From Bdellovibrionota bacterium (GTDB lineage: Bacteria > Bdellovibrionota > FAC87 > UBA2466): a stretch of DNA of 60,977 bases. Position 1 is the first letter of the stretch; every line of letters starts with the position of its first letter. This document shows, one piece after another, positions 30,334-53,382 of this stretch. Below the pieces are notes generated by a model. The model had not been told where the DNA came from. It saw only the letters and a list, made by a program, of their open reading frames with translations, and did not search any database. Location of the stretch: positions 1-60,977 of the forward strand of contig JBGSST010000158.1 in the NCBI GenBank assembly GCA_041736915.1. Reading direction: 5' to 3'. The translations under genes were made by a program, and so were the position numbers.

Positions 30334-30410
30334 GGGTGCCTAGCTCAGTTGGTTAGAGCGCCGCCTTCACACGGCGGAGGTCACAGGTTCGACCCCTGTG
30401 GCACCCACCA
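30334..30410 (+). tRNA. tRNA-Val (anticodon CAC), CCA encoded
   Basis: A perfect cloverleaf was read by hand: acceptor GGGTGCC/GGCACCC, D-arm GCTC-AGTTGGTTA-GAGC, anticodon arm CCGCC-TTCACAC-GGCGG, variable AGGTC, T-arm ACAGG-TTCGACC-CCTGT, discriminator A, then CCA. Confidence 0.95.
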
Positions 30411-32151: not shown

Positions 32152-32156
32152 CTTTA

Positions 32157-37228: not shown

Positions 37229-37420
37229 TTAATCTCCACATAAAATGTCGTCCGAACAATCCTGCAAAGCAGATCGCGACTGTTCCCCGCGACGGACGGC
37301 GCTGTTGGTTTGAATTCGGTGGCCGCGTGCCACGTCCTCGTATTTCAGACCCTCTTCGTTGATCTGCATGAGAACTGTGTTGAGCGGTTCCGTTCTTTTA
37401 GCTTCAAGAAGCATGGTCAT
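37229..37420 (-). CDS. Small hypothetical protein in tra operon
   Basis: 63-aa ORF exactly filling the gap between the traH-like gene (4-nt overlap) and the traG_N-like gene (3-nt gap). Confidence 0.35.
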   Translation of the reverse strand: MTMLLEAKRTEPLNTVLMQINEEGLKYEDVARGHRIQTNSAVRRGEQSRSALQDCSDDILCGD

Positions 37421-38523: not shown

Positions 38524-38533
38524 AGATAACCTC

Positions 38534-41113: not shown

Positions 41114-41128
41114 TTTCTCCAAGTGTGA

Positions 41129-41515
41129 TTAAAGTCTGCTGTTGCGCATGGGTTCGGTTCGTTCGGGAGCTGGATTCTTCGGTGCGGGATCAGGCTTCGT
41201 CACCGGCTTGAACACTTTTTCGAGGCCACCTGAAGTTGCCCAATGCGGTTCTTTGACGATGCTGCGAATCCATCCACCAAGAAAGTAGTCACCCGTCGGA
41301 AGTTCGTTAGGATGAACCCAGATATCCGCGATCACCGGCGCTGACCTTTTCGGAATCACCTTGTCGTCAGACGGCGCGAACGTGACATCAAGCGGTTTGT
41401 CGCCGCCCTCGTCATATCCGGCTCTGGCGTCAAGCATCCGTAGGCTCGGCGCACGGTTTGTGGCGCAGGCCGCGAGAAACAAAGTGCTGAACACAAATAG
41501 ACTGATCGTTTTCAT
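41129..41515 (-). CDS. traV: TraV-like outer-membrane lipoprotein
   Basis: 128 aa with a lipobox (LFLAACAT). Its position between traB and traC matches F-like systems. Confidence 0.55.
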   Translation of the reverse strand: MKTISLFVFSTLFLAACATNRAPSLRMLDARAGYDEGGDKPLDVTFAPSDDKVIPKRSAPVIADIWVHPNELPTGDYFLGGWIRSIVKEPHWATSGGLEKVFKPVTKPDPAPKNPAPERTEPMRNSRL

Positions 41516-41524
41516 AATTTCTCC

Positions 41525-42799
41525 TTACTCCGCAATTTTGGTGAAATAGGAATAGACGCTCTTGTCTTGCGAATCGGCTTTGCGAAAATACCAGTTGGGA
41601 AGCTCCACCTTGTCTTGCATCACAACCCAGATGTCCTGACCGGAGCCGATGTTGATCGTGGGAAGCAGCCGGTTGGCCTGCTGCAAATACCACTGCGTCA
41701 CCATCGAGGCCGCATTGCTCGCGCCACCGGCACCGATGTATTTCGCTTGATCTCCTGTGACCACCGATTGGCCGCCACCAAGAGCATTGGTTTGCTGAGT
41801 CGTTTGCGCTTGTTGAATCGCTTTCCCAACACCTTCGACAACGGAGGAGAGAAACGCAGTTGCAGCCACGCGGTCCTGCTTCGTACTGACCGATCCGATT
41901 ACAGCAAAGCTGTTGTCCGTGTCGTCCGCGACAAAACCATTCACCTCGCGCTCAAACATTTTCCCCTTCTGCGAAACGCACGAGATTTTCACCATCTGCA
42001 TTTGCACGCGCTCGGTGCTGAGATCGCCCTGGGCTTTGGAAATGCCGAAGCAGCCGGTGAGATCGACCTTGGTTCGGTTAGGGCCAATAAATGCGTAGTC
42101 GAGTTGCAAAAGGACCGGATAGTTTTTCCCCTCCGGCGCTTCCACACCCGTCATCATCTTGGCTTTGACGTAGCTGCCGGAGGGAATGACAACGCCCAGC
42201 TCTCCGACTTCAGCCTCCTTCACCGGAAACGAAATGGTCGCAGGCCCTTTTGCCGAGATGCGCGGAGCGGCAAAGCCCGTTCCCACCGATGGACTCATGC
42301 CAGCGCCGCGCTCACGGTAGAACTGCTGCGTGGGGTAAGACTCACTCGGCGAGCTTGGCTGTGGCGGATTGCCGAAACCTGGAGCTTCGCCGTTCGGATT
42401 GGATTGCTGCTGCGTATTATTGGTCGGTGGGGCCGTTCCAGTCGCAGGTTGCTGCGTCCCGTTTAGCCGATTCAAAATTTCGGTAAGTCGAGACTCGATG
42501 CCGGATAACTTTTCGTCGGTCGCGGTTTGCTTGGCCTCAAGATCCTTGATGGCCTTTGAAAGCAGTTGGTCGCGGCGTTTGTAGATGGAATCCGTCGATC
42601 CAAGAATTTTTCCACCTTCAAAGGACACCCCGTCCTTGGATTGGAAAACATAGGTTTCGCGCTCCATTCCCTTGCTGGCGACGTAGGTAAGTAGCAGTAG
42701 CAGACCAACACCAGCGGCGATGACGTAGATTCGCTTTTCCTTGTTGTTCTTCCACCACTGAGCCGCTTTTTCGACATACGGTTTTAACTTCTCTTTCAT
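41525..42799 (-). CDS. traB: TraB (VirB10-like) T4SS core protein
   Basis: N-terminal TM segment, a Pro/Gln-rich linker, and a C-terminal domain collinear with F TraB (IPSGSYVKAKMMTGVEAP...CFGISKAQGDLSTERVQMQMVKISC...INIGSGQDIWVVM). Confidence 0.75.
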   Translation of the reverse strand: MKEKLKPYVEKAAQWWKNNKEKRIYVIAAGVGLLLLLTYVASKGMERETYVFQSKDGVSFEGGKILGSTDSIYKRRDQLLSKAIKDLEAKQTATDEKLSGIESRLTEILNRLNGTQQPATGTAPPTNNTQQQSNPNGEAPGFGNPPQPSSPSESYPTQQFYRERGAGMSPSVGTGFAAPRISAKGPATISFPVKEAEVGELGVVIPSGSYVKAKMMTGVEAPEGKNYPVLLQLDYAFIGPNRTKVDLTGCFGISKAQGDLSTERVQMQMVKISCVSQKGKMFEREVNGFVADDTDNSFAVIGSVSTKQDRVAATAFLSSVVEGVGKAIQQAQTTQQTNALGGGQSVVTGDQAKYIGAGGASNAASMVTQWYLQQANRLLPTINIGSGQDIWVVMQDKVELPNWYFRKADSQDKSVYSYFTKIAE

Positions 42800-42914
42800 A
42801 AGGCAATACTCCTTGAGCCTCCGCCTCTTCTTTTGTGGTGAGAGGGGATTTCATTTTTTGAAATGGCTCTTGATGGAAGTAGCCTTATGAAACTGATTCG
42901 GATCTGACGGCTGT

Positions 42915-43721
42915 TTAGCCTTCTTTTTCCTTTTCTTTCTTCACGACCGCTACGGGTAGATTCACATTGTAGTAAACGGATGCCGGTTTCGCGACGATGC
43001 GCAGAAATACAGGACGCTCTGTCTTTTCATTTCCTGAAATTTTCTGTTCATCAATCTGCGAGAGAATTGCTGTGTTGGGGCTGCCGAGCGTGAGCTTGGT
43101 TACGTCGATCACGAAATCCTTATCATCGGCGTTGCTTGAAATCTTGAAGACGTAGCCGTTGAATTTCGCGCCGGTGTATACTCTGACGAGCTGGCAGTTG
43201 ATGCCGCTTACCTTGGTATCAACGGTGCGGATCAGTTTTTTCACCTGATACCCAGATACATGATCGCCGCGAATCATGGCTTTCATCAGTTCCAATTCGG
43301 AAACCCGTTCGCCCGTCTGATCGTTTGCCTCCGCCTTTTCAATCAGAGAATCCTTTCGTCTCAGATCGTAAAAGGAGTCGGTGTTTTCAGGGGCGGCCTT
43401 CGGCACCACCACGAGTTTGGTGTTGATGATCGACCCGTCGCTCATGATGAAAGTCACCTTGTCTTCCCCTTGAGAAAAACGAGGCGTAACTGACATCAGA
43501 GCATAGTTGGGTTGCTCCTCATCAGCGGGTCCAATCACGAAACGCGAAGCTTGGGAGATGGTTTTGACCGTCGTGGGGAAACGCACAATTGTCGGCCCAC
43601 CATACGAAAGCGTGATGGTTTCCATCTCATCGCCAACGTAAACGATGCGGGCAAAGCCTGTGTTGCTCCACAGCGACAACAAAATAAATCCGAAACCGAA
43701 TACTTTATAGAAGTTTTTCAT
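42915..43721 (-). CDS. traK: TraK (VirB9 N-terminal-like) T4SS core protein
   Basis: 268 aa with a signal peptide. The pattern and gene order (traE-traK-traB) match F-like systems. Confidence 0.6.
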   Translation of the reverse strand: MKNFYKVFGFGFILLSLWSNTGFARIVYVGDEMETITLSYGGPTIVRFPTTVKTISQASRFVIGPADEEQPNYALMSVTPRFSQGEDKVTFIMSDGSIINTKLVVVPKAAPENTDSFYDLRRKDSLIEKAEANDQTGERVSELELMKAMIRGDHVSGYQVKKLIRTVDTKVSGINCQLVRVYTGAKFNGYVFKISSNADDKDFVIDVTKLTLGSPNTAILSQIDEQKISGNEKTERPVFLRIVAKPASVYYNVNLPVAVVKKEKEKEG

Positions 43722-43723
43722 GA

Positions 43724-44485
43724 TTACTCTCCCGTGTTCTGAAGTGATTTTTTGGCCCTGAACGCTTCAACCTTGTTCCATCCGAGCTTGGATATTTGCA
43801 GATACCAACGACGCCCGCTTTCCGGTGGAACAAGCTTCAGCTCCATTTCGATGACCTGATCTTCGTGACCAAGAAAATTATTCTGCGAGTAGAACTCAGC
43901 GCGACTTATTGCCGTGACACGGTAGTTGCCCTTCTCGTCCGCCTTGACCTCCTTCTGGTTCACATGAAGAAGCTGCGAGATACCGTTTTCTTTGACCTGG
44001 CTCATCCAGTCGGCGATCTCCATTTTGAATTTGATCTTGAGTTCAGGACTCATCGAACGCGAAAGCGACTCGTACTGCTCGTCAATGTTGGTAGGGTTGA
44101 CGTTTCCAAGCTGCGATAAAAAGTCTGCCACCGCATCATTGACGTAGCTTTCGGAAACCGTTTGCGGCGAGGCCGTGGTGAAATCCATCACGCCAGGTGC
44201 CAAGATGTATTCCTTGAGGCGGTAACGCTCCATGAACTTGAGAAAGGAATACTCTCTGATGACCGCATACGTTGCGAAGACCGCAACGACGGCTGCCAGA
44301 ACGTATTTCAACGTCATCTGCGTTTTGAGATACGCTGCCTTGTAACAGATGTACTTGGGCAGATTTTTGAGATCCAACCCTTCGTACTCGCCAAGAGGAG
44401 GCGTCTTGAGTTTCGCCGCCTCGATTCCTTTTTGTGCCGCACCTATCATTTCGTTTCTCCATTCAAATATTTTTTTTAAATTCAT
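43724..44485 (-). CDS. traE: TraE-like bitopic inner-membrane T4SS protein
   Basis: 253 aa with a single TM segment (VLAAVVAVFATYAVI) followed by a TraE/VirB8-like periplasmic domain. It lies between traL and traK. Confidence 0.6.
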   Translation of the reverse strand: MNLKKIFEWRNEMIGAAQKGIEAAKLKTPPLGEYEGLDLKNLPKYICYKAAYLKTQMTLKYVLAAVVAVFATYAVIREYSFLKFMERYRLKEYILAPGVMDFTTASPQTVSESYVNDAVADFLSQLGNVNPTNIDEQYESLSRSMSPELKIKFKMEIADWMSQVKENGISQLLHVNQKEVKADEKGNYRVTAISRAEFYSQNNFLGHEDQVIEMELKLVPPESGRRWYLQISKLGWNKVEAFRAKKSLQNTGE

Positions 44486-44497
44486 CGCGTTCTCCCT

Positions 44498-44809
44498 TTA
44501 GTCCGAATAGCGTTTTCCGCCCTGTGGGTTGATGATTCCGGGCAGCGAAACGCCGAGCTTTGCATAGGGCCAATGCAGGAAGATCCCGCGCTCGTTGTTC
44601 TTCTTGATGACAGGCCCAATACCAAGAAAGACCACCAAAAGAGAAAACATCGTGAACCACGAGTAAAAGAGCACGCCGAAGATCATCACGATGGTTAGCG
44701 CAATGAAGGCATCGGAGAGTTCCCAATGATCGAAGATGGTAATCGGTGAGTCGATGGTTTGGCTCACGCGATTTCCTGAAGTCGCTTTCAGGTTGTCATA
44801 CCGAACCAT
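44498..44809 (-). CDS. traL: TraL-like T4SS protein
   Basis: 103 aa from ATG 44809 (MVRYDN...). It has a TraL-like hairpin of two TM helices followed by KKNNERG. The longer track ORF overlaps the pilin gene. Confidence 0.6.
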   Translation of the reverse strand: MVRYDNLKATSGNRVSQTIDSPITIFDHWELSDAFIALTIVMIFGVLFYSWFTMFSLLVVFLGIGPVIKKNNERGIFLHWPYAKLGVSLPGIINPQGGKRYSD

Positions 44810-45236
44810 GTTCGCCCTCCCGATCCTTGTCTTCGAGCAAGGCAACATAGGGTTTCTCCATTGTTTCCACTTGTCCGAAAATGCTGCTGTCGCCACTGAT
44901 GCTGAATACGTTTTTCACCCAAGTAGGAGCTGTCCCGAAGACCACGGCTCCGATTACACAGATGACGGCCATGCCGAAGCGTTGCTCTTTCAACGCCCAG
45001 GCCGCACTCATGATGCAAAGTCCGGCGAAAAGCCGCGCGCCCCACTTGAAAAGTCCCGTATCGATGAGGTGCAGGAGTGTGCCCGCCGCCTCTAGCTTGG
45101 CACTTTCATCCCGTCCCGGAAGATTACCGATGTCAGCAAGTGCGATGTCTGCGTACATCAGAACAAAACCAACGACGGCAACCGCGATCAGGCCAAAAAG
45201 TTGCCAGTCCCACCACTTTGGAATCCATTTCACCAT
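44796..45236 (-). CDS. Candidate conjugative pilin (TraA/TrbC/VirB2-like)
   Basis: 146 aa. A leader-like TM segment is followed by two hydrophobic helices separated by a short charged loop (LKEQR). It is the first gene before traL, as in F (traA-traL-traE-traK-traB-traV-traC). AAGGA lies 8 nt upstream of the ATG. Confidence 0.55.
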   Translation of the reverse strand: MVKWIPKWWDWQLFGLIAVAVVGFVLMYADIALADIGNLPGRDESAKLEAAGTLLHLIDTGLFKWGARLFAGLCIMSAAWALKEQRFGMAVICVIGAVVFGTAPTWVKNVFSISGDSSIFGQVETMEKPYVALLEDKDREGEHGSV

Positions 45237-45328
45237 AACGATTTCCTTTTTCTTCAGCAGCTCCGCTCTGTAGTGGTGGGAAGTGCGTATTCAATATTGG
45301 CCTCGCTGCTGCGGTGGGCCTAAAAACC

Positions 45329-46114
45329 TTATCCGCCGCTCGCCTGAGCGTTGATAGCTTCAAAGACCGAATCGGTGCTCTGATAACCAGAAAGCCGGTA
45401 CACAACTTTCTTTTGCAAATCCCCGATCAGAAGAAACGGCACGCTCTTGATCTGGTGCTTGTCCACGTCGGCCTTACTGGCTTTGGTCACAGCGACTGTC
45501 AAGCCAGGTAGCGCGACATCATTGCCATCAATCTGAAACGCTTCGACGTAGAAGCCGCGAGACTGCAAATCTGAAACGGTGGCAAACATGCGCTTGCAGT
45601 GCGGGCACTGCGAATCAAAGTAGAAGCGGAAACGATACCTGCTTGTCTCTGGGGGTGCCTTTTGCAGACTCTCTTTCGCATTCACTAGGATCGCTTTGCT
45701 TTGCGGCTCCATCTTAGCTTCGTTCTTTGCAAGGTACTCCTGCATCCGGCCCATCATCCGACTCGTTAGCTCATTTTTCTTTTCGATCATGGCGAACCAA
45801 TTTTTGATATTCTCGTCCGTTGGATTGCGCACCAATTCCATAAACGGTTCAGGCGGCGTATACTCGCCTTCGCGGAAAAATTCTTTGTTGCTCGGATCAA
45901 GATGCGCTTTCCAATCGAACTTGTCGGGTGTTAACGCCGATGACTTCTTCTCCGGCACGGCAGCCGGAGTGCTCTTTTCTTCCTTTTTCTGTTCGTTCCA
46001 GTAGTCGATACCGGAATTGAAGAAATTGAAGTCGTTGGCGTGTGCCTCGGAGGACACCAGCACAACGCCAACGACTCCGCCCCATACTGCGGACAAAATG
46101 GATCTAGGCCACAT
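45329..46114 (-). CDS. TraF/TrbB-family periplasmic thioredoxin-fold protein with CPHC active site
   Basis: Signal peptide and a C-terminal thioredoxin-like domain (FYFDSQCPHCKRM...VPFLLIG). Confidence 0.6.
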   Translation of the reverse strand: MWPRSILSAVWGGVVGVVLVSSEAHANDFNFFNSGIDYWNEQKKEEKSTPAAVPEKKSSALTPDKFDWKAHLDPSNKEFFREGEYTPPEPFMELVRNPTDENIKNWFAMIEKKNELTSRMMGRMQEYLAKNEAKMEPQSKAILVNAKESLQKAPPETSRYRFRFYFDSQCPHCKRMFATVSDLQSRGFYVEAFQIDGNDVALPGLTVAVTKASKADVDKHQIKSVPFLLIGDLQKKVVYRLSGYQSTDSVFEAINAQASGG

Positions 46115-47723
46115 GAAATGCTTCCTCCAAATCTATGAGCCCTTGAGCGGCGAGGCTAAAGGCCGCTTGTTGCAGGCTCGTTTGCAGACATTCTTTACGC
46201 GGTTTGCCGTTAAGGTAGGCGGCTACCCCTTCGCCATCAGCGTATTCCAAAATGGGGATTCGTCCGCTAATGCCGCCAATACATTTGTCGCAACCTGCGG
46301 CGTTTCTCGTCTTGAATTTCGGCTTGTCCTGTAGGGTTTCTTCTAACGGCCTCAACTTATCGAGATACAATGGCTTCGATGCGCCGCTAATGACCGGAAC
46401 CGAACAGTGCTCGCAGAGTTTCTTGACGAGTCGCTGCGCTCCAATGAAGCGGAGCGAGGAGCTAATCGAGAAATCATCAACTCCAAGAGCCTTCAAACGC
46501 TCGATGCTTTCAACAGCGCCGTTGGCGTGTAGGGTCGAAATGACAAGGTGGCCCGTGTTGGCGATCTTGAAACTGAGCTTCGCTGTTTCTTCATCACGGA
46601 TCTCGCCGAGTAAAATCACGTCCGGGTCCTGACGCATGAGCGCACGAAGGGCAGCGGCAAACGAGAGATGACGGCTGATCTCCGTTTGCGTGACACCGAA
46701 AAGCTCGTACTCCGATGGGTCTTCCAGGGTCGTGATGTTCTTTGTCTTGTGGTCGAGCGAATTGATAAGGCCGTAAAGCGTTGTCGTTTTGCCGCTACCC
46801 GTTGGGCCGGAGATGATGATCAAACCATTCTTCAACTCTGCCGCGTTCTTGAGATCCACGAGTGACTTTGCCTGCAATCCTGACTCTTCGATGTGGAACT
46901 GCCGTTCTTGATCGAGAAGGCGCAACACGATCTTGTCGCCGTGGCGCGAAGGCAATGCGTTCACTCGCAGATTCAACTTCAAATCGTAGTAGGTAGCGCG
47001 AGCGTCCTGCGGCTTACCCGAAACCGAGAGATCCAGGTTGGTGAGCCATTTGACCTTAGTTATAAAGGCGTCGCGGTGCTCTTTCTCCAAAGCCTTCCAC
47101 GTTACAAGGTCGCCGTGGATGCGAAAGCGTATCTCAAGTGATTCCGCCTTTGGTTCAATGTGAATATCGCTGATGGACCGCTCTTTTGCGGTTGCAATGC
47201 ACTCTCGGTAGAGCCGTGCATAGGGATTGTCTGATTTGATCTTGAGATCGTCGGTGATGTTTTCTGATAAAACGAGACGACCTTGCGTGCCATTTTCGGA
47301 AGATGCCCCCGTTTGGTTTTTTAGGTACTCGTAGATATGAGCTTCAACGATTTTAACGTCGAGCCGCCAGCGCCACTTCTTTTCAAAGTTCTCGATGATC
47401 TCGTCTTGGAAACGATCCGATACCGCATGAAGGATACGTCCTTCAGCACCAATGGCGATCAATCCTTGCTCGTGGAGCCAGTCGCTTACCTCTGGGATGA
47501 TCGCGGCGGTCGATAGACGCGCCAGGATTTCCGGCAGCGGTTCTTTGAGTTTGAGCTTCAAGAACGAGGACAGTTCCAGATTGAGCGTGTTCTGGTCAAT
47601 GTGCCCCAGCTCGCGCAGAAGGCGTCCAAGGGGAGCCTTCTTATAGCGTTGCACGGCAATGGCCTCGGCAATCGCTTCGGCAGTGACGGTATTTTTCAAA
47701 ACTAGATGTTCACCAAATCTCAT
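46104..47723 (-). CDS. GspE/PilB-family secretion ATPase (T2SS/type IV pilus type) with tetracysteine motif
   Basis: ATG at 47723 lies 2 nt after the traU-like stop. Features: GSPII_E N-terminal-like region, Walker A SGPTGSGKTTT, Asp box/Walker B DVILLGEIRDEETA, His box TGHLVISTLHAN, and CEHC...CDKC. Confidence 0.85.
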   Translation of the reverse strand: MRFGEHLVLKNTVTAEAIAEAIAVQRYKKAPLGRLLRELGHIDQNTLNLELSSFLKLKLKEPLPEILARLSTAAIIPEVSDWLHEQGLIAIGAEGRILHAVSDRFQDEIIENFEKKWRWRLDVKIVEAHIYEYLKNQTGASSENGTQGRLVLSENITDDLKIKSDNPYARLYRECIATAKERSISDIHIEPKAESLEIRFRIHGDLVTWKALEKEHRDAFITKVKWLTNLDLSVSGKPQDARATYYDLKLNLRVNALPSRHGDKIVLRLLDQERQFHIEESGLQAKSLVDLKNAAELKNGLIIISGPTGSGKTTTLYGLINSLDHKTKNITTLEDPSEYELFGVTQTEISRHLSFAAALRALMRQDPDVILLGEIRDEETAKLSFKIANTGHLVISTLHANGAVESIERLKALGVDDFSISSSLRFIGAQRLVKKLCEHCSVPVISGASKPLYLDKLRPLEETLQDKPKFKTRNAAGCDKCIGGISGRIPILEYADGEGVAAYLNGKPRKECLQTSLQQAAFSLAAQGLIDLEEAFHVA

Positions 47724-47725
47724 AG

Positions 47726-48739
47726 TTAAAGCCCCTGACAAACGGCTTGCATCAAACCTTGCGCGGCAATCGTCGAAGCGACGTAGGGCAGGTCTTTGGT
47801 GCAAGACACTTTTTTCCAAACCGTAAAAAGGTAGTTCTTCATTTTTCCGCTTTGCAGGCGGCCTATGTCGGTCGCCATTGCAGCGGTTTCGAGAAACGCC
47901 ACGTTCTGACCGCGACGAAAACACTGCGACTGAGTGGGAGAAATCATCTGCCACTTCTCGTCTGCGCTTGAATCGACGCTCATAAAAACTTCGCTTCCCA
48001 AACTCTTCAGACGATCCGCGATCATCAGCGCACCGACGGTCTGACTTGCGCCGTCATAAGTGCCGTAGCGTGGGAAGAAGATCCCCCATCCGTTACACAC
48101 CTGGCGAGGAGACGGTGGGTACTTGGGTAGCGGATTAGGGAAGCTGCATATCGGCGCTCCCCCGCCAGGTGTTCCAGGTTCTCCAGCGACGGAATTTGCA
48201 GCTCCGTAGAGAAGACACGCTTTCGGGGCGGCCATCCAAGCTAGAAATGCGGGCTGCAAGGAGTCACCGCTCCCCGTGCGCCAATGCGAATCGACATGCT
48301 CACTCATCGCTTCAAAACACCACCGCTCAATCGGAATGTCGTCACACGGCATCGCTCGATACGGGATGTTGATGAACGGAACCGTCAGCGCGTGCGATTG
48401 AAACGAATGCGCGCCTTGATCCCCTTCTGCGCCGAAAGGCAGTCCCGATCCCATCGTGCCAAGTTGCACGGCAGCTCCGGGGAGAGATCCAAAGAATGTC
48501 TCCTTGGGATTCGCCACCGACTCAACAAACGTCACCGGAACGTAGTAGCTAAAGTGCGCGCACGGTCTTGGGACCGGCCAGCCGCACATCGCCGGAGTGA
48601 TGTTCAGCTCCATGCAACTATTGAACGCCGGCGTCTTCACCACCGAGCAGACGTTTGGAAAAAGGGCGAAAGCCTGCTGCTCAAACAGCAGCGCAATCAG
48701 TCCTGGCAGAAGATAAATTTTTGGTTTCCAAAAGTTCAT
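47726..48739 (-). CDS. traU: TraU-like periplasmic Cys-rich T4SS protein
   Basis: 337 aa with a signal peptide. Many conserved-looking Cys and aromatic-rich motifs are collinear with F TraU (approximate match by eye). Confidence 0.5.
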   Translation of the reverse strand: MNFWKPKIYLLPGLIALLFEQQAFALFPNVCSVVKTPAFNSCMELNITPAMCGWPVPRPCAHFSYYVPVTFVESVANPKETFFGSLPGAAVQLGTMGSGLPFGAEGDQGAHSFQSHALTVPFINIPYRAMPCDDIPIERWCFEAMSEHVDSHWRTGSGDSLQPAFLAWMAAPKACLLYGAANSVAGEPGTPGGGAPICSFPNPLPKYPPSPRQVCNGWGIFFPRYGTYDGASQTVGALMIADRLKSLGSEVFMSVDSSADEKWQMISPTQSQCFRRGQNVAFLETAAMATDIGRLQSGKMKNYLFTVWKKVSCTKDLPYVASTIAAQGLMQAVCQGL

Positions 48740-48996
48740 CAGTCTACATCCCCACCATTTGCGAATTGCCGTTTGGAAACGAGTAGAAATCGGCGATTCT
48801 TTGGGTGGTCCTCGACCTGCCGTAGCTGTCCGTCGTGGTAGACGAAGTGAAATGAGCCGTATCGCATCTCGATGCCGAACTCTTTGCAGAATGCTTTTTG
48901 AAGGCGGTCGGCAGCTTCCTTGATGACGGCCAGATCCGGCACATTGGAAAGCGTTTCGCGAAAGTCGCGATTATCGAATTGATCGTTTTTAAGCAT
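48739..48996 (-). CDS. Small DUF2292/YezD-like protein
   Basis: 85 aa from ATG 48996, preceded by a perfect AGGAGG. It has the YGSFHFVYHDGQLRQVE motif characteristic of YezD-like proteins. Its stop overlaps the traU-like start (TGATG). Confidence 0.5.
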   Translation of the reverse strand: MLKNDQFDNRDFRETLSNVPDLAVIKEAADRLQKAFCKEFGIEMRYGSFHFVYHDGQLRQVEDHPKNRRFLLVSKRQFANGGDVD

Positions 48997-49039
48997 CGTG
49001 ATCCTCCTATAAGTTGTTTGGTTAGAGCCTCGTACATTG

Positions 49040-49249
49040 CTAAAAGTCCTCTTTGTCTGGGTCGCGAAGGTGTTCATACGAATTTTCGTTGGCACACATG
49101 CGGGCATAGATGTCCACGCTGTCCCAATCGCATTCGCGGCAGAAATATTCTCCGCCGACATTTTCCAACCTGGTCGAAGAGCAAACAGGGCAGCAGCGGG
49201 GTTGCTTCTTGCGACGAGACTTCTTTTCACGATCAGCCATTTCGCTCAT
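49040..49249 (-). CDS. Small zinc-ribbon protein, first gene of the tra operon
   Basis: 69 aa with CPVC...CREC. GGAGG lies 8 nt upstream of the ATG. Confidence 0.5.
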   Translation of the reverse strand: MSEMADREKKSRRKKQPRCCPVCSSTRLENVGGEYFCRECDWDSVDIYARMCANENSYEHLRDPDKEDF

Positions 49250-49339
49250 GGCAAATTCCTCCAGAGATGCGCGCAGAATTTCTTCCGCGCTGCGGTTGCA
49301 GTTTTTTTGAGAAGTGCGCGCCTCTCGCCCTTAATAAAT

Positions 49340-49355
49340 TTCAAGGGCTGTGCCA
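49340..49355 (-). promoter_or_regulatory. Candidate sigma54 (-24/-12) promoter facing the tra operon (imperfect -12)
   Basis: The minus strand reads TGGCACAGCCCTTGAA. It has a perfect -24 TGGCAC and correct spacing, but the -12 reads TTGA instead of TTGC. It lies about 90 nt upstream of the zinc-ribbon gene start. Confidence 0.3.
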
Positions 49356-49523
49356 CGCGCTTGGAGGTATTGCGTAAGCGTCTGATTAGAAAAATCTTTT
49401 GCGAGGTTTCAGAAGAAAAAATTGAGAAAACGCGGAAGTAAAAATCGGGCGAGATGTGGGACGCGATTTTGCGTGATTGAGCATGAAATCAGGGGATTAC
49501 GGGGTGGGCGAACTCTGGGACGA

Positions 49524-49781
49524 GTCCAAGAGTTTGGACAGCGAAAAATCAGGGATGGAGAGGTGACGTGTCCAACACCTCGGACACATTTGAAAGAGAG
49601 CTAAAACCGGCCAATTTCCAAATGTTATCGCTCAAAACCAGAATCAGTTTGACTCGCTGTCCCAAGTGTGGGACAGTACGGCGGTTGATGGTCTGGATTT
49701 CGTAGATTCTTCTTTGATCACCTGTAGTTGTAGCAACTAGGGAAAGCCTTTTAGCATCGTAGTTTGTCCAAGACTTCGGAC
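49524..49781. promoter_or_regulatory. Four GTCC-N8-GGAC palindromes (candidate enhancer/UAS sites for the adjacent sigma54 activator)
   Basis: The four sites are GTCCAAGAGTTTGGAC (49524-49539), GTGTCCAACACCTCGGACAC (49568-49587), CTGTCCCAAGTGTGGGACAG (49657-49676, 8-bp perfect arms) and GTCCAAGACTTCGGAC (49766-49781). Confidence 0.6.
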
Positions 49782-49918
49782 GGTTTTTCCCCGCTCCTCA
49801 GCTCTGATTTCCCCTCTGTTTCGCCATCCGACGATGAATCCTAATCAACAATTTCTCTAGCACTTTCCGAGTAATGCACGTTCGCTCCAGTTGTTGCGGG
49901 AAATAGAAATTTTGTGCG

Positions 49919-49934
49919 TGGCATGACGGTTGCT
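49919..49934 (+). promoter_or_regulatory. Sigma54-dependent promoter (-24/-12) of the cargo operon
   Basis: TGGCATGACGGTTGCT matches TGGCAYG-N4-TTGCW at every conserved position (GG 49920-21, GC 49932-33). It lies 51 nt upstream of the ATG at 49985. Confidence 0.7.
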
Positions 49935-49984
49935 CAAGCATGTCTACGCACGCACTGTTTTGCGTAGAAAGGGGAAGCAGACCG

Positions 49985-51388
49985 ATGGAACATAAAATTT
50001 TAGTCGTCGATGACAACGCCGATAACCTGGAAGCTACCGAGCTGCTTCTTCGAGACAATGGCTATGAAGTCGATGTGGTTCGTACCGCCGCCGGAGCCGT
50101 TGAGAACATCAAACGTGATAGCAGTGGATACTCTCTCGTAATTCTCGACTATCACCTTCCAGACAAGACAGGTGCAGATGCACTTGCTGCACTTCGCGCT
50201 ATCAACCCAAACCTGTACGTTCTCGTTTACTCGGGCGACACGAAGTCGCGTGATCCGGTCAAGGCGACGTTACGCGGTGGAGCCGTTGATTTTATCGAGA
50301 AGAGTGAAGATCCACGCTATTTCCTGAGCATCGTTCAACAGTGGTGTACCAAGTTTGACGAAACGACCCGGATTCTGATTCCTCCCGCCGCTCTTTCTGA
50401 AAACGAGAGATTGATTCGCAGTCTAGGCATCGCTGGCCGCTCCCAGGCGTTAGCCCAAATATGTCTCGACATTCAAAAGTACGCTCGCGAAGAGGCGGGA
50501 GCCAACGTCCTCCTCCTCGGTGAAACCGGAACCGGCAAAGAAGTCATTGCTCGCGCTATCCACCGCAACAGTCCACGCAACAGCGGGCCGTTCGTCGCGA
50601 TCAACTGCGGTGCTATTCCTGAAACCCTAATTGAGAGCGAACTATTCGGCCATGATCGCGGTGCATTCACCGGCGCTAACATGCGCAAAGAAGGCAAGTT
50701 CGAGAACGCCAATCGTGGGACGATCTTTTTGGACGAAATCGGAGAAGCAACACTCGCAACGCAAGTAAGACTCTTACGGGTCATTCAGGAAAAAGTCGTT
50801 ACTCCGCTCGGCAGCAATCGCCTGGTGAAAGTTGATGTACGCATTATCGCTGCCACAAATCGCGATCTCCTATCGGAAGTCGAGGCGGGAAGGTTTCGCG
50901 AAGACCTGTATTATCGCCTCAACATCATCTCTATGCACATTCCTCCGCTTAAGGAGCGCCGAGAGGATATTGCACCGCTGGTCATGCACTTCTGCGATCA
51001 GATCAATCGAGATAAGAATAAGAAAAAGAGTTTCCTGATGCGCACCGTCCGGTTGATGGAAAACTACTACTGGCCGGGCAATGTACGCGAGCTTGAAAAC
51101 TATGTGACCAAACTTCTGACTCAGAGTGAATCAGAGACGATCACGCCCGAATGCCTCGACGCTAAATTTTTCAGTGTAGCACCGCTTCAGACGTTGACGT
51201 TGCCTGATCTCGTCAGTCGTCAGGAAAAAGAGCGATTCGATTTCATTTCGGAAAATCTCAAATCATCAAAATCAATGCGTGATGCCGCAAAGAAAATGGG
51301 TGTTTCAAAGAGCACGCTGCATCACATGCTGAAAAAATTCGGTGTTATTAGGGGCGACGCCTCGAAGGAGGTATCTAGTGCAAGGTGA
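49985..51388 (+). CDS. Sigma54-dependent response regulator (NtrC family: REC, AAA+, Fis-type HTH)
   Basis: REC (ILVVDDN, LVILDYHLPDKTG), Walker A GETGTGKE, GAFTGA loop present (DRGAFTGA), Walker B IFLDEIGE, C-terminal HTH (MRDAAKKMGVSKSTLHHMLKKFGV). ATG at 49985 follows AAAGGGGAAG. The track ATG at 49940 would sit on top of the promoter. Confidence 0.9.
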   Translation: MEHKILVVDDNADNLEATELLLRDNGYEVDVVRTAAGAVENIKRDSSGYSLVILDYHLPDKTGADALAALRAINPNLYVLVYSGDTKSRDPVKATLRGGAVDFIEKSEDPRYFLSIVQQWCTKFDETTRILIPPAALSENERLIRSLGIAGRSQALAQICLDIQKYAREEAGANVLLLGETGTGKEVIARAIHRNSPRNSGPFVAINCGAIPETLIESELFGHDRGAFTGANMRKEGKFENANRGTIFLDEIGEATLATQVRLLRVIQEKVVTPLGSNRLVKVDVRIIAATNRDLLSEVEAGRFREDLYYRLNIISMHIPPLKERREDIAPLVMHFCDQINRDKNKKKSFLMRTVRLMENYYWPGNVRELENYVTKLLTQSESETITPECLDAKFFSVAPLQTLTLPDLVSRQEKERFDFISENLKSSKSMRDAAKKMGVSKSTLHHMLKKFGVIRGDASKEVSSAR

Positions 51389-52178
51389 AAGACTGTCCAT
51401 CAACTACCGAGATATTTCGGCTCTAGGTTATGATTACGTTCAAGAGAAAACTTACACCGCCGACCATCCCGATGTTGTCGCCTGGGCGAACTCGTTTTTG
51501 AGTCGTTTTAGGGAAAAGAAAATTTTTGAGCGGTTTGATTCCGAACAGGCTTCGCCATCACTTGTGAAAACGAAAGTAGTTGGTACTCAGTGGCACCGCT
51601 TCTCCGAGTTCATGCCCTACATCCTTTGCTCGGCATCGGCGAGGGTGTCGAATAACCGGCTGCGTCACTACACAATCCAGACGGCCTATGAGGAATTGGG
51701 GGCACGCAACGCCGACGAGATTCATCACGAGATGTTTTGGGAAACGGCTCTTGCGGCAGGTGCCCAAGACTCTGATCGCGCTCGGATGGCGAATGAACCA
51801 GAAATTAACGACGCCCTGAAATTCCTTGAGCACGTTTTAGTGACCGCGAAGTCGGATGAGGAAATCTTGGGGCTTCTTCTCGGTCTTGAAATTTGCGCTG
51901 AGGAGAATATCGAAACCGTATTCTCTTCGCTCGCGCATACAAAGGCGCTTGAAACCTCCCTCGCCGAAACGAAGTTCTTCAAACTACATCGCCAATTGGA
52001 GATGGAGCACATCAGGCTCGACGTTTCGATCTTCTTGCGTTTCTGCCAGACCTCCGAGGAAAAGACGCAGCATTTTACCAGCGGTTTTGATTCTGGCGTT
52101 CAGTTTTGGGATGAGTTTTGGTCTGGCATTGGAAAAATTATCGTTCGCGAGCAGCGCAGGGGGACTTCCCGTGCATAA
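51378..52178 (+). CDS. Heme-oxygenase-like diiron (HDO) / iron-containing redox enzyme family protein
   Basis: About 266 aa, all-helical. Candidate ligand motifs: YEELG...EIHHEMFWE, GLEICAEENIE and FFKLHRQLEMEHIRL. GTG at 51378 is preceded by AGGAGG. Confidence 0.6.
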   Translation: MQGERLSINYRDISALGYDYVQEKTYTADHPDVVAWANSFLSRFREKKIFERFDSEQASPSLVKTKVVGTQWHRFSEFMPYILCSASARVSNNRLRHYTIQTAYEELGARNADEIHHEMFWETALAAGAQDSDRARMANEPEINDALKFLEHVLVTAKSDEEILGLLLGLEICAEENIETVFSSLAHTKALETSLAETKFFKLHRQLEMEHIRLDVSIFLRFCQTSEEKTQHFTSGFDSGVQFWDEFWSGIGKIIVREQRRGTSRA

Positions 52179-53382
52179 GCGTGGTGAATTCATCAAGCTC
52201 TTGCTTGCAGCGTTTATTTCGCAGAGCGGCAGCCATTTCCTTACCCTCGCTCTTTCAGCAATGGTGTTTGCGAAAACCGGCTCCGCCGTCAAAGCATCCC
52301 TGATCTTCGTGCTTTCTTACATGCCATCGGTGTTCGTTTCTTCCTCGCTTGGCGGGTGGATTGATCGCGCTATTTCAAAGAAGCTCCTGGTGGGCAACGA
52401 CGTTCTAGCAATTTTCGTAAGTGTCCTCTGCGGCGCTTGCGTTTATTACGAGCTTCCCATTGTCGCACTTTGTACTGCTGTGGCCATTCGCTCACTCCTC
52501 CTTTTTACGTCGCGAACGGCGATGACTAAATGGGTGAAAGTCATTTCACCGGATAGCCTGGCCGCGTCCAGGATCAAGTTATTCTTTCTGAGCTTTTTTC
52601 TTTCGACAGTCGCAGCGGGCGTGCTGGCGAGCCTTTTCCTCGGTAAAGTTTCGATTTGGACTATTGTTGCCGTTGACGCCGCAACTTATGGCCTCGGAAT
52701 AGTAGTTATTTCATTTTTGCGGAAGCTCGAAGTCGCTCCCGCCCTCTCCGAAGTCCGCGCTAACCACATCGTCGCCACGATTACAGAGATCCTTGCGGAC
52801 CCAATGCTGAAGGCGAGCTTTATAGCGGTTTGTTTTTCCCAAGCGATTTTCCAAGGGGCCTATTCTATCCTCGTGTCCTATCTCCCCTTACGGCACTTCG
52901 ATATTGGCCTGTCGGGTACAGGCATTTTTCAAGTAGCCGCATCGGTAGGTATCATTGGAGGGTTCTGGGTCAATTGGCGTTTCCCAAGTTTCCTGAAAGG
53001 AAATGGCGGTTGGCCACTTCGATTGATCGTCTGCACCATCACAGGAATTGTCGGACTTCTTTTGACTACGCAGACGGATCTTCGTTTAGGGGTCGCGAGC
53101 TTCTTTGTACTCAATCTTGCTTATGAAGCTATCTGGCTCTTTCATAGCTCCGAATTTTTCGCAGGTAGCCCCGCTAACAATATGGCGCGTTACCAGTTCA
53201 CGCTGTCTTCTGTGGCTTCGCTCCTGATGGCACTATCAACGCTCGGCTATGCCGCATCTATTGATCAGTCCGGTGCTCAAGGTGGCGTGGCGCTCACGTT
53301 GTCTACCGTGGTGCTCGGCTGGCTCGCGGTTTCTCGTATCTCCACTCAGCGCAAGCAAGTGATCGTGGGGGTGCGAGCATGA
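52171..53382 (+). CDS. MFS transporter (EntS/MFS_3-like exporter)
   Basis: About 403 aa from GTG 52171 with about 12 TM segments. The N-terminal pattern FISQSGSHFLTLALSAMVF...YMPSVFVSSSLGGWIDR is typical of the 'transmembrane secretion effector' MFS group. Confidence 0.75.
   Translation: MHKRGEFIKLLLAAFISQSGSHFLTLALSAMVFAKTGSAVKASLIFVLSYMPSVFVSSSLGGWIDRAISKKLLVGNDVLAIFVSVLCGACVYYELPIVALCTAVAIRSLLLFTSRTAMTKWVKVISPDSLAASRIKLFFLSFFLSTVAAGVLASLFLGKVSIWTIVAVDAATYGLGIVVISFLRKLEVAPALSEVRANHIVATITEILADPMLKASFIAVCFSQAIFQGAYSILVSYLPLRHFDIGLSGTGIFQVAASVGIIGGFWVNWRFPSFLKGNGGWPLRLIVCTITGIVGLLLTTQTDLRLGVASFFVLNLAYEAIWLFHSSEFFAGSPANNMARYQFTLSSVASLLMALSTLGYAASIDQSGAQGGVALTLSTVVLGWLAVSRISTQRKQVIVGVRA

What the first reader, a model, noticed from the sequence alone, without database searches (positions are those of the whole stretch)
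49340..49968. Divergent sigma54 control region: four GTCC-N8-GGAC palindromes between two outward-facing -24/-12 elements
The 735-bp gap between the tra operon (minus strand, start 49249) and the cargo operon (plus strand, start 49985) holds four 16-20-bp palindromes. They share GTCC-N8-GGAC half-sites and start at 49524, 49568, 49657 and 49766.

- To the right is a near-consensus sigma54 promoter, TGGCATGACGGTTGCT (49919-49934), facing the activator gene. This implies autoregulation.
- To the left, on the opposite strand, TGGCACAGCCCTTGAA (49355-49340) faces the tra operon. Its -24 is perfect but its -12 reads TTGA.
- The sites lie about 140-400 bp upstream of the cargo promoter and about 170-430 bp upstream of the tra-facing element. 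These are typical enhancer distances for bacterial enhancer-binding proteins.
- An 8-bp-arm hairpin (TCTACGCA-N10-TGCGTAGA, 49943-49968) sits at the predicted 5' end of the cargo mRNA, just before the RBS.

If both promoters are real, one activator would co-control conjugation genes and cargo.
Basis: seen in the sequence. Interest (0 to 1): 0.7.

Follow-up and report, generated by a model that had tools for sequence, protein, structure and literature searches.

The report
Two-way sigma-54 switch for conjugation genes
The 735-bp gap between a conjugation (DNA-transfer) operon and a sensor/activator operon looks like a real two-directional sigma-54 control region, and relatives in predatory Bdellovibrio-type bacteria share the layout, so a signal-sensing activator probably decides when this mobile element transfers.

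Summary
Observation confirmed. The four GTCC-N8-GGAC palindromes are the only matches in the 61-kb window (0.77 expected) and lie within 258 bp. Both -24/-12 elements and the hairpin are at the stated coordinates.

Interpretation supported by comparison, not by experiment.
- Relatives with 85-90% identical activators keep the half-sites and TGGCA/GGTTGCT while the bases between them vary.
- Distant relatives of the activator each sit behind their own TGGC-N7-TTGC promoter. Each has its own 6-N4-6 palindrome repeated 2-5 times.
- Palindrome sequence follows the activator's predicted DNA-recognition helix: same helix, same palindrome.
- Across 80 TraU-linked loci, nearly all Bdellovibrionota, sigma-54-like motifs facing the tra operon are about 10-fold enriched. 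They often lie 25-110 nt before a conserved zinc-ribbon first gene.
- The -12 C is often replaced in this family, and three relatives have the same TTGAA as here. The odd left element therefore fits the family.

The "cargo" operon is more likely the element's own signalling module: enzymes, an exporter-like protein, a periplasmic binding protein, a histidine kinase and the activator.

The architecture matches zraP-zraSR. Its use to drive an F-type conjugation operon appears undescribed in the literature I could search. The hairpin is real sequence but folds no better than shuffled controls.

The parts
49524..49539 (.). Palindrome 1, GTCCAA-GAGT-TTGGAC. Proposed activator (bEBP) enhancer site. 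Its centre is about -413 from the right TSS and about -203 from the left TSS.
   Evidence: Kept in L011, L016 and L019. Degenerate in the L002 family, which carries an insertion next to it.
49568..49587 (.). Palindrome 2, GTGTCCAACACCTCGGACAC. It fits TGTC-N10-GACA.
   Evidence: Half-sites are kept with a variable centre in L002 (AATCCGTT) and L011 (AACACCTT). One half is lost in L016 and L019.
49657..49676 (.). Palindrome 3, CTGTCCCAAGTGTGGGACAG. It fits TGTC-N10-GACA.
   Evidence: Kept in every relative that covers it.
49766..49781 (.). Palindrome 4, GTCCAA-GACT-TCGGAC. Its centre is about -171 from the right TSS.
   Evidence: Kept at -218/-219 from the ATG in all relatives, with four different centres.
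49919..49934 (+). Sigma-54 -24/-12 promoter of the activator/signalling operon, TGGCAT-N5-TTGCT. Predicted TSS about 49945 (inferred from the standard spacing).
   Evidence: TGGCA and GGTTGCTCAAG are invariant in 4 diverged sequences while the spacer varies. Equivalent promoters lie 48-70 nt before the first ATG in L013, L014 and L015. 15 non-redundant examples occur in TraU-linked loci.
49340..49355 (-). Sigma-54-type -24/-12 promoter facing the tra operon, TGGCAC-N5-TTGAA. Predicted TSS about 49329 (inferred).
   Evidence: TGGCACA and CTTGAAATTT are invariant in 5 sequences while the flank and spacer vary. A homologous position in front of the zinc-ribbon gene carries TTGCA, TCGCA or TTGAA in relatives. 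Motifs on this strand are 10-fold enriched.
49375..49387 (-). IHF-like site AATCAGACGCTTA, centred about -52 from the predicted tra TSS. Candidate DNA-bending site.
   Evidence: Conserved, and closer to the consensus (ATCAA-N4-TTA) in L016 and L019. Tentative.
49447..49522 (.). Two direct repeats GGGCGAnnTGTGGGACG at 49447-63 and 49506-22. Each carries an extra GGGAC half-site.
   Evidence: family D3. Conserved in A3. Function inferred only.
49943..49968 (+). 8-bp hairpin at the predicted 5' end of the activator-operon mRNA.
   Evidence: One compensatory A-U to G-C change in L011, and a different shifted stem in L002. Not more stable than shuffles.
49264..49326 (-). Leader stem of the predicted tra mRNA, GAGAGGCGCGCA...UGCGCGCAUCUC. 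It starts about +4 and ends just before the Shine-Dalgarno sequence.
   Evidence: (pair I8). The G.A mismatch becomes G.U in L019. z = -0.9, so it is weak.
49985..51388 (+). NtrC-type response regulator and sigma-54 activator (bEBP), 467 aa. It has a receiver domain, an AAA+ domain with GAFTGA, and a C-terminal HTH (KMGVSKSTLHHMLKKFG).
   Evidence: Pfam and alignment A2.
51378..58264 (+). Rest of the operon: haem-oxygenase-like iron enzyme, MFS-like membrane protein, ATP-grasp ligase, short-chain dehydrogenase, periplasmic binding protein (55341-56495) and histidine kinase (56492-58264). Proposed signal synthesis, export and sensing module.
   Evidence: The same composition is found in L002-L011. 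Analogous modules with other enzymes occur in L014, L015, L024, L031, L036 and L079.
49040..49249 (-). First gene of the tra operon, a 69-aa zinc-ribbon protein (CPVC...N14...CREC).
   Evidence: Homologous first gene in L015 and many TraU-linked loci.
37417..48996 (-). F-type transfer genes downstream of the zinc-ribbon gene: an 85-aa protein, TraU, a PilB/GspE-type ATPase, TraF-like, TraL, TraE, TraK, TraB/TrbI, TraC and TraH.
   Evidence: Pfam and gene calls in L001.

Best explanation
The gap 49250-49984 is a bidirectional, enhancer-dependent (sigma-54) control region of an integrative conjugative element.

Proposed mechanism (inferred, not shown):
1. The element's NtrC-type response regulator (49985-51388) is phosphorylated by the kinase in the same operon (56492-58264). 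The kinase probably senses a ligand held by the adjacent periplasmic binding protein.
2. The activated regulator binds as dimers to the four 16-20-bp GTCCAA-N4-TTGGAC palindromes, and possibly to two extra half-sites.
3. It assembles into an ATPase ring and contacts sigma-54 RNA polymerase by DNA looping at two outward-facing -24/-12 promoters.
4. The right promoter (49919-49934) drives the regulator's own operon, giving positive feedback.
5. The left promoter (49355-49340) drives the zinc-ribbon gene and the F-type transfer operon.

The non-consensus -12 (TTGA) of the tra promoter is typical of this element family. From established work on -12 mutants (my own knowledge), it should weaken the locked closed complex and change basal or induced levels rather than abolish sigma-54 use.

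Shown here: the sequence features, their conservation, and the way palindromes follow the activator HTH across relatives. Inferred: binding, looping, transcription starts, and the nature of the signal.
For: 1. All four window matches to GTCC-N8-GGAC cluster here, against 0.77 expected.
2. In relatives whose activator is 85-90% identical, sites 2-4 stay at -414/-324/-218 from the ATG. Half-sites are kept and centres change. TGGCA-N4-GGTTGCT is invariant with a variable spacer.
3. In L016 and L019 the zinc-ribbon protein is only 64-65% identical. TGGCACA and CTTGAAATTT are still invariant while the flank and spacer vary.
4. Distant activator homologues (42-47% identity) each follow a TGGC-N7-TTGC promoter 48-70 nt before the operon start, and each has its own repeated palindrome. 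L013 has GAACCG-N4-CGGTTC x3 and L015 has TTCAGA-N5-TCTGAA.
5. The 6-N4-6 design recurs:
   - L021: CTTCGA-N4-TCGAAG x3.
   - L036 and L039: TGACGA-N4-TCGTCA x3.
   - L025: the same palindrome x2; L023: two copies with one mismatch each.
   - L043: CTACAA-N4-TTGTAG (two copies, plus a third shorter TACAA/TTGTA match).
   - L038: TGGCT-N6-AGCCA x4.
6. Palindromes follow the predicted recognition helix. L036, L039, L025 and L023 share KRTTLNSRMK and the same palindrome, although the L036 and L025 activators are only 64% identical and their intergenic DNA is otherwise mostly unalignable. Different helices go with different palindromes.
7. In 80 TraU-linked loci, motifs scoring at least 10 of 11 were counted per 100 kb. 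The tra-facing strand upstream of TraU has 10.2, the opposite strand 4.2, regions downstream of TraU 1.1-1.3, and the reversed-sequence control 0.9.
8. In front of 22 zinc-ribbon genes, 14 have a best forward score of 9.5 or more, against 0 on the reverse strand.
9. L028, L058 and L085 have the same TTGAA -12. The -12 C is the majority base at only about 60% of tra-facing promoters, against about 90% of activator-facing ones.
10. At least 10 loci have the same divergent promoter pair.
11. About 35 of the 80 loci have an activator gene 2-5 kb upstream of TraU, mostly divergent.
12. No sigma-70-like promoter, no Rfam family and no conserved ORF is found in the gap.
13. The activator has the receiver Asp, GAFTGA and a C-terminal HTH.
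14. rpoN is reported in B. bacteriovorus HD100 (bd0843, PMC3464611) and in Bacteriovorax marinus SJ (PMC3526173).
Against: - There are no transcript or binding data.
- The left element lacks the conserved -12 C.
- As bare motif hits, neither promoter exceeds chance in the window.
- In close relatives the left element lies in a nearly invariant 115-bp block, so conservation there says little.
- In L015 the homologous tra-side motif is TGGCAT-N3-TTGCA, 2 bp too short for sigma-54. In L075 it is 1 bp short.
- In the L002 family a roughly 620-bp insertion puts sites 2-4 about 840 bp from the tra promoter, and site 1 has decayed. Co-control by these sites is less obvious there.
- A promoter that depends strictly on its own product needs a basal source of activator, and I found none.
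- The host of this contig is not identified, so the presence of sigma-54 is assumed from the taxonomic distribution of relatives.
- The motif enrichment used a threshold chosen by me.
Confidence: 0.68

Rival explanations
1. Only the right-hand promoter is enhancer-controlled. The palindromes serve the activator's own operon, and the tra-facing TGGCAC-N5-TTGAA is inactive or is used by another regulator, another activator or another sigma factor.
For: - The -12 C is missing.
- Sites 2-4 keep their distance to the activator ATG, not to tra, when the L002 family gains 620 bp.
- The L015 and L075 counterparts have wrong spacing.
- A shared motif downstream of the -12 (AATTTAWTAA, then GGG.GAG) is also conserved and might be what matters.
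Against: - Tra-facing -24/-12 motifs are enriched on that strand across the family, many with canonical TTGC or TCGC.
- The footprint in L016 and L019 falls on TGGCAC and TTGAAA.
- There is no alternative sigma-70-like promoter in the gap.
- The activator gene stays linked to the tra operon in about 35 of 80 loci.
Confidence: 0.17
2. The palindromes are operators for a different DNA-binding protein of the element, such as the zinc-ribbon protein encoded by the first tra gene or an XRE-type repressor. They would repress one or both promoters.
For: - The zinc-ribbon gene is always next to the region.
- XRE-like genes are inserted in or next to the region in L002 and L014.
- ICE transfer is often repressor-controlled (general knowledge).
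Against: - Palindrome sequence follows the activator's HTH.
- The zinc-ribbon motif stays similar (CPRCG...C..C) across loci whose palindromes differ.
- The window has the palindromes but no XRE gene in the gap.
- Sites lie 170-450 bp from both promoters and do not overlap them. That is enhancer geometry, not operator geometry.
Confidence: 0.08
3. The repeated palindromes are a DNA-processing or segregation element, such as oriT accessory sites or centromere-like partition sites, that happens to lie next to the tra operon.
For: oriT and par sites are often arrays of inverted repeats in intergenic DNA near transfer genes (general knowledge).
Against: - I found no ParA or ParB gene among the ORFs scanned. 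The relaxase-like gene is 15 kb away.
- The same kind of array precedes activator operons that are not next to tra genes, in L013 and L014.
- The link with the activator HTH also argues against it.
Confidence: 0.03
4. The features are chance or RNA-level features: hairpins or terminators with no role in transcription activation.
For: Site 4 plus its T-run is flagged as terminator-like. The predicted leader hairpins are not more stable than shuffles.
Against: - 0 of 100 shuffles reach 4 sites.
- Half-sites are conserved while the centres vary. That is the pattern of a protein site, not of a stem.
- Terminator-like hits do not exceed expectation: 2 found against 1.2 expected.
Confidence: 0.02

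Closest known systems
zraP-zraSR (ZraR/HydG) divergent sigma-54 region of E. coli and Salmonella
   Same: A two-component NtrC-type activator controls two divergent sigma-54 promoters from sites in the shared intergenic region. One of the two promoters drives its own kinase/regulator operon, giving autoregulation. PMC4987338 states that ZraR controls divergent sigma-54 promoters for zraSR and zraP.
   Different: Here the second promoter drives a roughly 12-kb F-type conjugation operon on a mobile element, not a periplasmic chaperone. The regulator's operon also carries biosynthetic enzymes, an exporter-like protein and a binding protein. The activator is only a generic homologue: Pfam HTH_8 is not hit, and HTH_50 is hit below its cut-off.
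NifA (TGT-N10-ACA) and GlrR/QseF (TGTC-N10-GACA) upstream activator sequences
   Same: Sites 2 and 3 read TGTC-N10-GACA, and sites 1 and 4 match in one half. There are several copies 100-450 bp upstream of a -24/-12 promoter. The GlrR consensus is listed in PMC4987338. The NifA consensus is from my own knowledge.
   Different: The conserved core here is longer (GTCCAA/TTGGAC). Sister elements use unrelated half-sites with the same 6-N4-6 geometry. The resemblance is therefore in geometry and does not indicate orthology.
Quorum- or pheromone-controlled conjugation (TraI/TraR of Ti plasmids, PrgX/PrgZ of pCF10, Rap-Phr of ICEBs1)
   Same: A mobile element carries its own sensing module, possibly with signal production, next to and controlling its transfer genes. 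A solute-binding protein takes part in sensing, as PrgZ/Opp does in pCF10 (own knowledge).
   Different: The output here would be a sigma-54 activator acting at a distance, not a LuxR-type activator or a repressor. Signal production is only inferred from the gene content.
VasH and Sfa2 bEBPs encoded inside type VI secretion clusters
   Same: A sigma-54 activator encoded within a secretion-machine gene cluster turns on that machine's operons (PMC3439928, PMC8855297).
   Different: That machine is a T6SS and this one is an F-type T4SS. Those activators are not receiver-domain response regulators paired with a kinase and binding protein in the same operon.

Membership tests
Sigma-54 (-24/-12) promoter: right element 49919-49934 | GG and GC dinucleotides separated by 10 bp, within TGGCAC-N5-TTGCW | tested here: met
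   TGGCATGACGGTTGCT scores 10 of 11. GG and GC are invariant and the spacer varies in 4 relatives.
Sigma-54 (-24/-12) promoter: right element 49919-49934 | Placed upstream of a gene start in the right orientation, and recurs at the same place in homologous operons | tested here: met
   It lies 66 nt before the ATG. Equivalents lie 48-70 nt before the operon start in L013, L014 and L015, and there are 15 non-redundant cases in TraU-linked loci.
Sigma-54 (-24/-12) promoter: left element 49355-49340 | GG at -24 and correct 10-bp spacing to the -12 dinucleotide | tested here: met
   TGGCAC-N5-TTGAA. TGGCACA is invariant in 5 sequences.
Sigma-54 (-24/-12) promoter: left element 49355-49340 | GC at -12 | tested here: not met
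   It reads GA. Homologous tra promoters in relatives read TTGCA, TCGCA, TTGAA or TTGAT. The C is the majority base at only about 60% of the 38 non-redundant tra-facing examples. I therefore file it as working like a sigma-54 promoter, not as a proven one.
Sigma-54 promoters (both elements) | Transcription starts about 12 bp downstream of the -12 element and needs RpoN and an ATP-hydrolysing activator | not testable with these tools
   Needs 5'-end mapping and genetics.
Bacterial enhancer-binding protein, NtrC/response-regulator class | Receiver domain with a phospho-acceptor Asp, and an AAA+ sigma-54 interaction domain with the GAFTGA loop | tested here: met
   Response_reg at 2.4e-18 and Sigma54_activat at 4.4e-69. 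D55 and GAFTGA are conserved in A2.
Bacterial enhancer-binding protein, NtrC/response-regulator class | C-terminal Fis-type helix-turn-helix DNA-binding domain | tested here: inconclusive
   There is no HTH_8 hit. HTH_50 scores 23.3 bits, below its 27-bit cut-off. The alignment shows an HTH-like KMGVSKSTLHHMLKKFG, conserved in close relatives and divergent in distant ones.
Enhancer (UAS) for a bEBP | Two or more dyad-symmetric sites about 80-500 bp upstream of the sigma-54 promoter | tested here: met
   Four sites are centred at -171 to -413 from the right TSS and -203 to -445 from the left TSS.
Enhancer (UAS) for a bEBP | Site sequence changes together with the activator's DNA-binding domain across relatives | tested here: met
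   The same helix goes with the same palindrome (L036, L039, L025, L023). Different helices go with different palindromes (window, L013, L015, L021, L043). The sample is small and qualitative.
Enhancer (UAS) for a bEBP | The activator physically binds the sites | not testable with these tools
   Needs EMSA or footprinting.
zraP-zraSR-type divergent sigma-54 region | Two outward-facing sigma-54 promoters with shared activator sites between them, one driving the regulator's own operon | tested here: met
   Seen in the window. At least 10 further loci have a minus/plus promoter pair 170-1200 bp apart. This holds at sequence level only.
Quorum-sensing-type control of conjugation | The element encodes both the signal synthase and its receptor, and the signal induces transfer | not tested
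   Gene content is suggestive: ATP-grasp, iron enzyme, SDR, MFS-like protein, binding protein and kinase. Other enzyme sets occur in relatives. No chemistry or induction data exist.

The most novel reading that the evidence does not exclude
A whole family of integrative conjugative elements in Bdellovibrionota uses sigma-54 as the gate for conjugation.

- Each element would carry a private signalling cassette: enzymes that make a small molecule or modified peptide, an exporter, a periplasmic binding protein, a kinase and a sigma-54 activator.
- The activator's recognition helix and its 6-N4-6 enhancer palindromes would have co-diversified between lineages.
- Each element would then switch on its own feedback loop and its own F-type transfer operon without cross-talk with co-resident elements.

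This would be a quorum-sensing-like, enhancer-dependent, probably bistable transfer switch.
Probability: 0.3. Interest if true: 0.8.

Novelty: new variant of a known kind. Interest (0 to 1): 0.6.

Why it matters
How mobile elements decide when to transfer is known for only a few model systems: LuxR-type quorum sensing, peptide pheromones, SOS-cleaved repressors, and the ICEclc cascade.

I found no description of a conjugation operon gated by sigma-54 and an element-encoded two-component activator. I checked a major ICE review, two sigma-54 regulon surveys and several searches.

Sigma-54 promoters are almost silent without their activator and respond steeply. Combined with positive feedback, that would suit the all-or-none activation in a subpopulation typical of ICEs.

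The family-wide pairing of recognition helix and palindrome also gives a natural set of orthogonal activator/enhancer pairs. These could be useful for studying how DNA-binding specificity evolves and as synthetic-biology parts.

The hosts are predatory bacteria, so gene flow in them also bears on their proposed use as living antibiotics.

Tried and rejected
- Rfam scan of 49000-50100 with permissive thresholds: only one sub-threshold hit (18 bits against a 45-bit gathering score), so no known RNA.
- Sigma-70 scan of the gap: no outward-facing candidate. I found no basal promoter for the activator.
- Terminator reading of site 4: 2 hits against 1.2 expected, so rejected.
- Hairpin at 49943-49968 and the tra leader stem: z-scores of -0.7 and -0.9, with one compensatory change each. 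Kept as weak features only.
- Small ORFs in the gap (60 aa and 86 aa): not conserved, and L016 has none of 40 aa or more. Rejected as genes.
- Homologue search with the 69-aa zinc-ribbon protein: only 4 close hits. Two gave useful short contigs, L016 and L019.
- IHF site for the right promoter: AATCAACAATTTC misses the consensus R, so it is not claimed.
- The L015 tra-side motif first looked like evidence for a non-sigma-54 shared motif, because its spacing is 2 bp short. The wider family set showed it is an outlier.
- Partition and oriT readings were considered and rejected for lack of partner genes, and because the same arrays occur at activator operons away from tra genes.
Full report
**Context**

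The window is a complete 60,977-bp NCBI contig. G+C falls from about 0.59 to about 0.51 from roughly 25 kb onward.

The low-GC part carries these genes:
- a serine recombinase (30367-32151, -), a weak relaxase-like gene and an FtsK-like coupling ATPase;
- a minus-strand F-type transfer operon with TraH, TraC, TrbI/TraB, TraK, TraE, TraL, TraF-like, a PilB/GspE-type ATPase and TraU, ending with an 85-aa gene and a 69-aa zinc-ribbon gene whose ATG is at 49249.

Across a 735-bp gap, a plus-strand operon starts at 49985. It encodes:
- an NtrC-type response regulator that is a sigma-54 activator (Response_reg, Sigma54_activat at 4.4e-69, AAA_lid_14, weak HTH_50);
- a haem-oxygenase-like iron enzyme, an MFS-like membrane protein, an ATP-grasp ligase and a short-chain dehydrogenase;
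- a periplasmic binding protein and a histidine kinase.

**Checking the observation**

All stated features are present at the stated positions.
- GTCC-N8-GGAC occurs four times in the window, all between 49524 and 49781. Shuffles give 0.77 on average and never reach four.
- The sites are best described as 6-N4-6 palindromes, GTCC[A/C]A-N4-T[G/C/T]GGAC. Sites 2 and 3 extend to 20 bp and read TGTC-N10-GACA.
- Each promoter-like element has one mismatch to TGGCAC-N5-TTGCW. Such matches are not rarer than chance in the window, so they need outside support.
- The 8-bp hairpin is real sequence but folds no better than shuffled controls.

**Close relatives**

The activator has relatives at 85-90% identity in several metagenomes. 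All keep the divergent layout of tra operon and activator operon.

In the alignment of the gaps:
- TGGCA and GGTTGCTCAAG of the right element are invariant while the four spacer bases change.
- Sites 2-4 stay at -414, -324 and -218 from the ATG, with half-sites kept and centres changed. Site 4 has four different centres.

One lineage (L002-L009) has a roughly 620-bp insertion with two small ORFs between site 1 and site 2. Site 1 has decayed there.

Two further contigs (L016, L019) encode a zinc-ribbon protein only 64-65% identical to the window's. In these contigs:
- TGGCACA and CTTGAAATTT of the left element are unchanged, while the upstream flank, two spacer bases and the bases after TTGAAATTT vary.
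- Sites 1 and 3 are kept, and site 2 has lost one half.

The non-coding gap as a whole shows about 81% column identity in that alignment. This suggests dense regulatory DNA.

**Distant relatives of the activator**

Homologues at 42-47% identity (P0006, P0009, P0010) also lack a Pfam HTH_8 hit.
- Each lies in an operon preceded by TGGC-N7-TTGC, 48-70 nt before the first start codon.
- Each upstream region has its own repeated palindrome. L013 has GAACCG-N4-CGGTTC three times, and L015 has TTCAGA-N5-TCTGAA with variants.
- L015 also has the divergent layout, with a zinc-ribbon first gene and TraC on the other strand.

**The wider element family**

An alignment of TraU homologues retrieved 80 genomic loci. 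Almost all come from Bdellovibrionota genomes assembled from metagenomes: Bdellovibrionaceae, Bacteriovoracaceae and Oligoflexia.

- About 35 loci have an activator gene 2-5 kb upstream of TraU, mostly divergent.
- Motifs scoring at least 10 of 11 were counted per 100 kb. The tra-facing strand upstream of TraU has 10.2, the opposite strand 4.2, regions downstream of TraU 1.1-1.3, and reversed sequences 0.9.
- Many tra-facing hits lie 25-110 nt before a zinc-ribbon gene.
- In front of 22 such genes, 14 have a forward best score of 9.5 or more and none do on the reverse strand.
- Among 38 non-redundant tra-facing promoters the -24 TGGCAC is nearly fixed, but the -12 C is the majority base at only about 60%. 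Variants include TTGCA, TCGCA, TTGAA (L028, L058, L085, as in the window), TTGAT and TTGTA. It is about 90% for the 15 activator-facing promoters.
- At least ten loci show the same outward-facing promoter pair.
- L015 (spacing 2 bp short) and L075 (1 bp short) are outliers.

**Do the palindromes belong to the activator?**

The 6-N4-6 arrays recur between the promoters of other loci with different half-sites:
- L021: CTTCGA-N4-TCGAAG, three copies.
- L036 and L039: TGACGA-N4-TCGTCA, three copies.
- L025: the same palindrome, two copies. L023: two copies with one mismatch each.
- L043: CTACAA-N4-TTGTAG (two copies, plus a third shorter TACAA/TTGTA match).
- L038: TGGCT-N6-AGCCA, four copies.
- L098: TGGCGA-N4-TCGCCA, two copies.

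The predicted recognition helix follows the palindrome.
- L036, L039, L025 and L023 share KRTTLNSRMK and the same palindrome.
- The window, L013, L015, L021 and L043 have different helices and different palindromes.
- The L036 and L025 activators are 64% identical. Their intergenic DNA is mostly unalignable apart from the TGACGA/TCGTCA sites and half-sites and the tra-facing TTGGCAC-N5-ATTGCC.

The zinc-ribbon motif stays similar across loci whose palindromes differ. This argues against it being the protein that reads them.

**Other anatomy**

- Standard spacing predicts transcription starts near 49945 (+) and 49329 (-). These are inferred, not measured.
- Site centres are then -171 to -413 from the right start and -203 to -445 from the left start.
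- An IHF-like ATCAR-N4-TTA is centred about -52 from the tra start. It is conserved and closer to the consensus in L016 and L019.
- Two direct repeats add GGGAC half-sites at 49447-63 and 49506-22.
- The gap has no sigma-70-like outward promoter, no Rfam family and no conserved ORF.

**The 'cargo' operon**

In relatives, the operon holding the activator always combines a kinase or a solute-binding protein with variable enzymes.
- L014 and L024 have a radical SAM enzyme.
- L015 has YcaO.
- L079 has a dehydrogenase and a haem-oxygenase-like enzyme.
- L031 has DUF6421 and a dehydrogenase.
- L036 has a family-5 binding protein.

I read this as a signalling module of the element. The element may make its own signal. 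This is an inference from gene content only.

**Comparison with known systems**

- The architecture is that of zraP-zraSR, where ZraR controls divergent sigma-54 promoters including its own operon (PMC4987338).
- The site geometry resembles the GlrR site TGTC-N10-GACA (same paper) and the NifA site TGT-N10-ACA (own knowledge).
- Activators inside secretion-system clusters are known for T6SS (PMC3439928, PMC8855297).
- A major ICE review mentions RpoN only in a reference title. Two sigma-54 regulon surveys do not mention conjugation or Bdellovibrio. My searches found no paper on sigma-54-gated conjugation.
- rpoN is reported in B. bacteriovorus HD100 and Bacteriovorax marinus SJ (PMC3464611, PMC3526173).

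**Verdict**

- Two points need correcting: the 'cargo' operon is probably regulatory, and the hairpin is unremarkable.
- The regulatory design is known. Its use as the switch of an F-type conjugation operon, and the lineage-specific pairs of helix and palindrome, make it a new variant of a known kind.
- No experiment backs any of this yet.

Noticed in passing
L002:8930-9580 (also L003-L009); L014:1269-1523: The L002 lineage has a roughly 620-bp insertion between palindromes 1 and 2. It carries an 86-aa ORF (minus strand) and an XRE-like HTH ORF (plus strand) that ends just before site 2. L014 also has an XRE-like 84-aa gene directly upstream of its enhancer region. This could be an added layer of repression.
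   Followed up: partly
window 46104-47723 (-): A PilB/GspE-type (T2SSE) ATPase sits directly after TraU inside the F-type transfer operon. It is found next to TraU in nearly all of the 80 related loci. This is unusual for F-type systems.
   Followed up: partly
window 49040-49249 (-): The first gene of the tra operon is a 69-aa zinc-ribbon protein (CPVC-N14-CREC). It is conserved as the first gene in many related elements, where the motif reads CPRCG...C..C. Its function is unknown, and it could be a small regulator.
   Followed up: partly
window 49676-49745: A block between palindromes 3 and 4 (GTACGGCGGTT.ATGGT...GATCA.CTGTAGTTGTAGCA) is conserved as strongly as the palindromes in all relatives. 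It has no assigned role.
   Followed up: no
window 49849-49865: The block CAATTTCTCTAGCACTT is nearly invariant, about 80-95 nt upstream of the predicted right TSS. It is only a poor match to IHF. It may be a bending-protein site or a second regulator's site.
   Followed up: no
L015:5234-5300 (minus strand); L075 around 1650-1750: The homologous tra-side motif in L015 is TGGCAT-N3-TTGCA, 2 bp too short for sigma-54. In L075 it is 1 bp short. These are either decayed promoters, assembly errors, or a sign that the shared downstream AATTTAWTAA/GGG.GAG motif also matters.
   Followed up: partly
L048:2190-2240: TGTCCCAC-N20-GTGGGACA lies near the tra-facing promoter of L048. It has the same half-site as window palindrome 3 but a long spacer. 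No activator gene is within the fetched locus.
   Followed up: no
L029 (CAZUYQ010000011.1): A near-identical element (TraU 93%) lies on a contig binned as Polynucleobacter, a betaproteobacterium. This is either misbinning or transfer across phyla.
   Followed up: no
window about 24000-32200: G+C drops from 0.59 to about 0.51 near 25 kb. A serine recombinase lies at 30367-32151 (-). Between 25.4 and 30.2 kb lie an aminotransferase, a 7TMR-DISM histidine kinase and a 402-aa response regulator. The left boundary of the element was not mapped, and the right boundary is beyond the contig end.
   Followed up: no
window 36910-36925 (-): TGGCACACGAATAGCT, one mismatch with GG-N10-GC intact, lies inside a 494-aa tra-region ORF upstream of the FtsK-like gene. 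It could be an internal sigma-54 site or chance.
   Followed up: no
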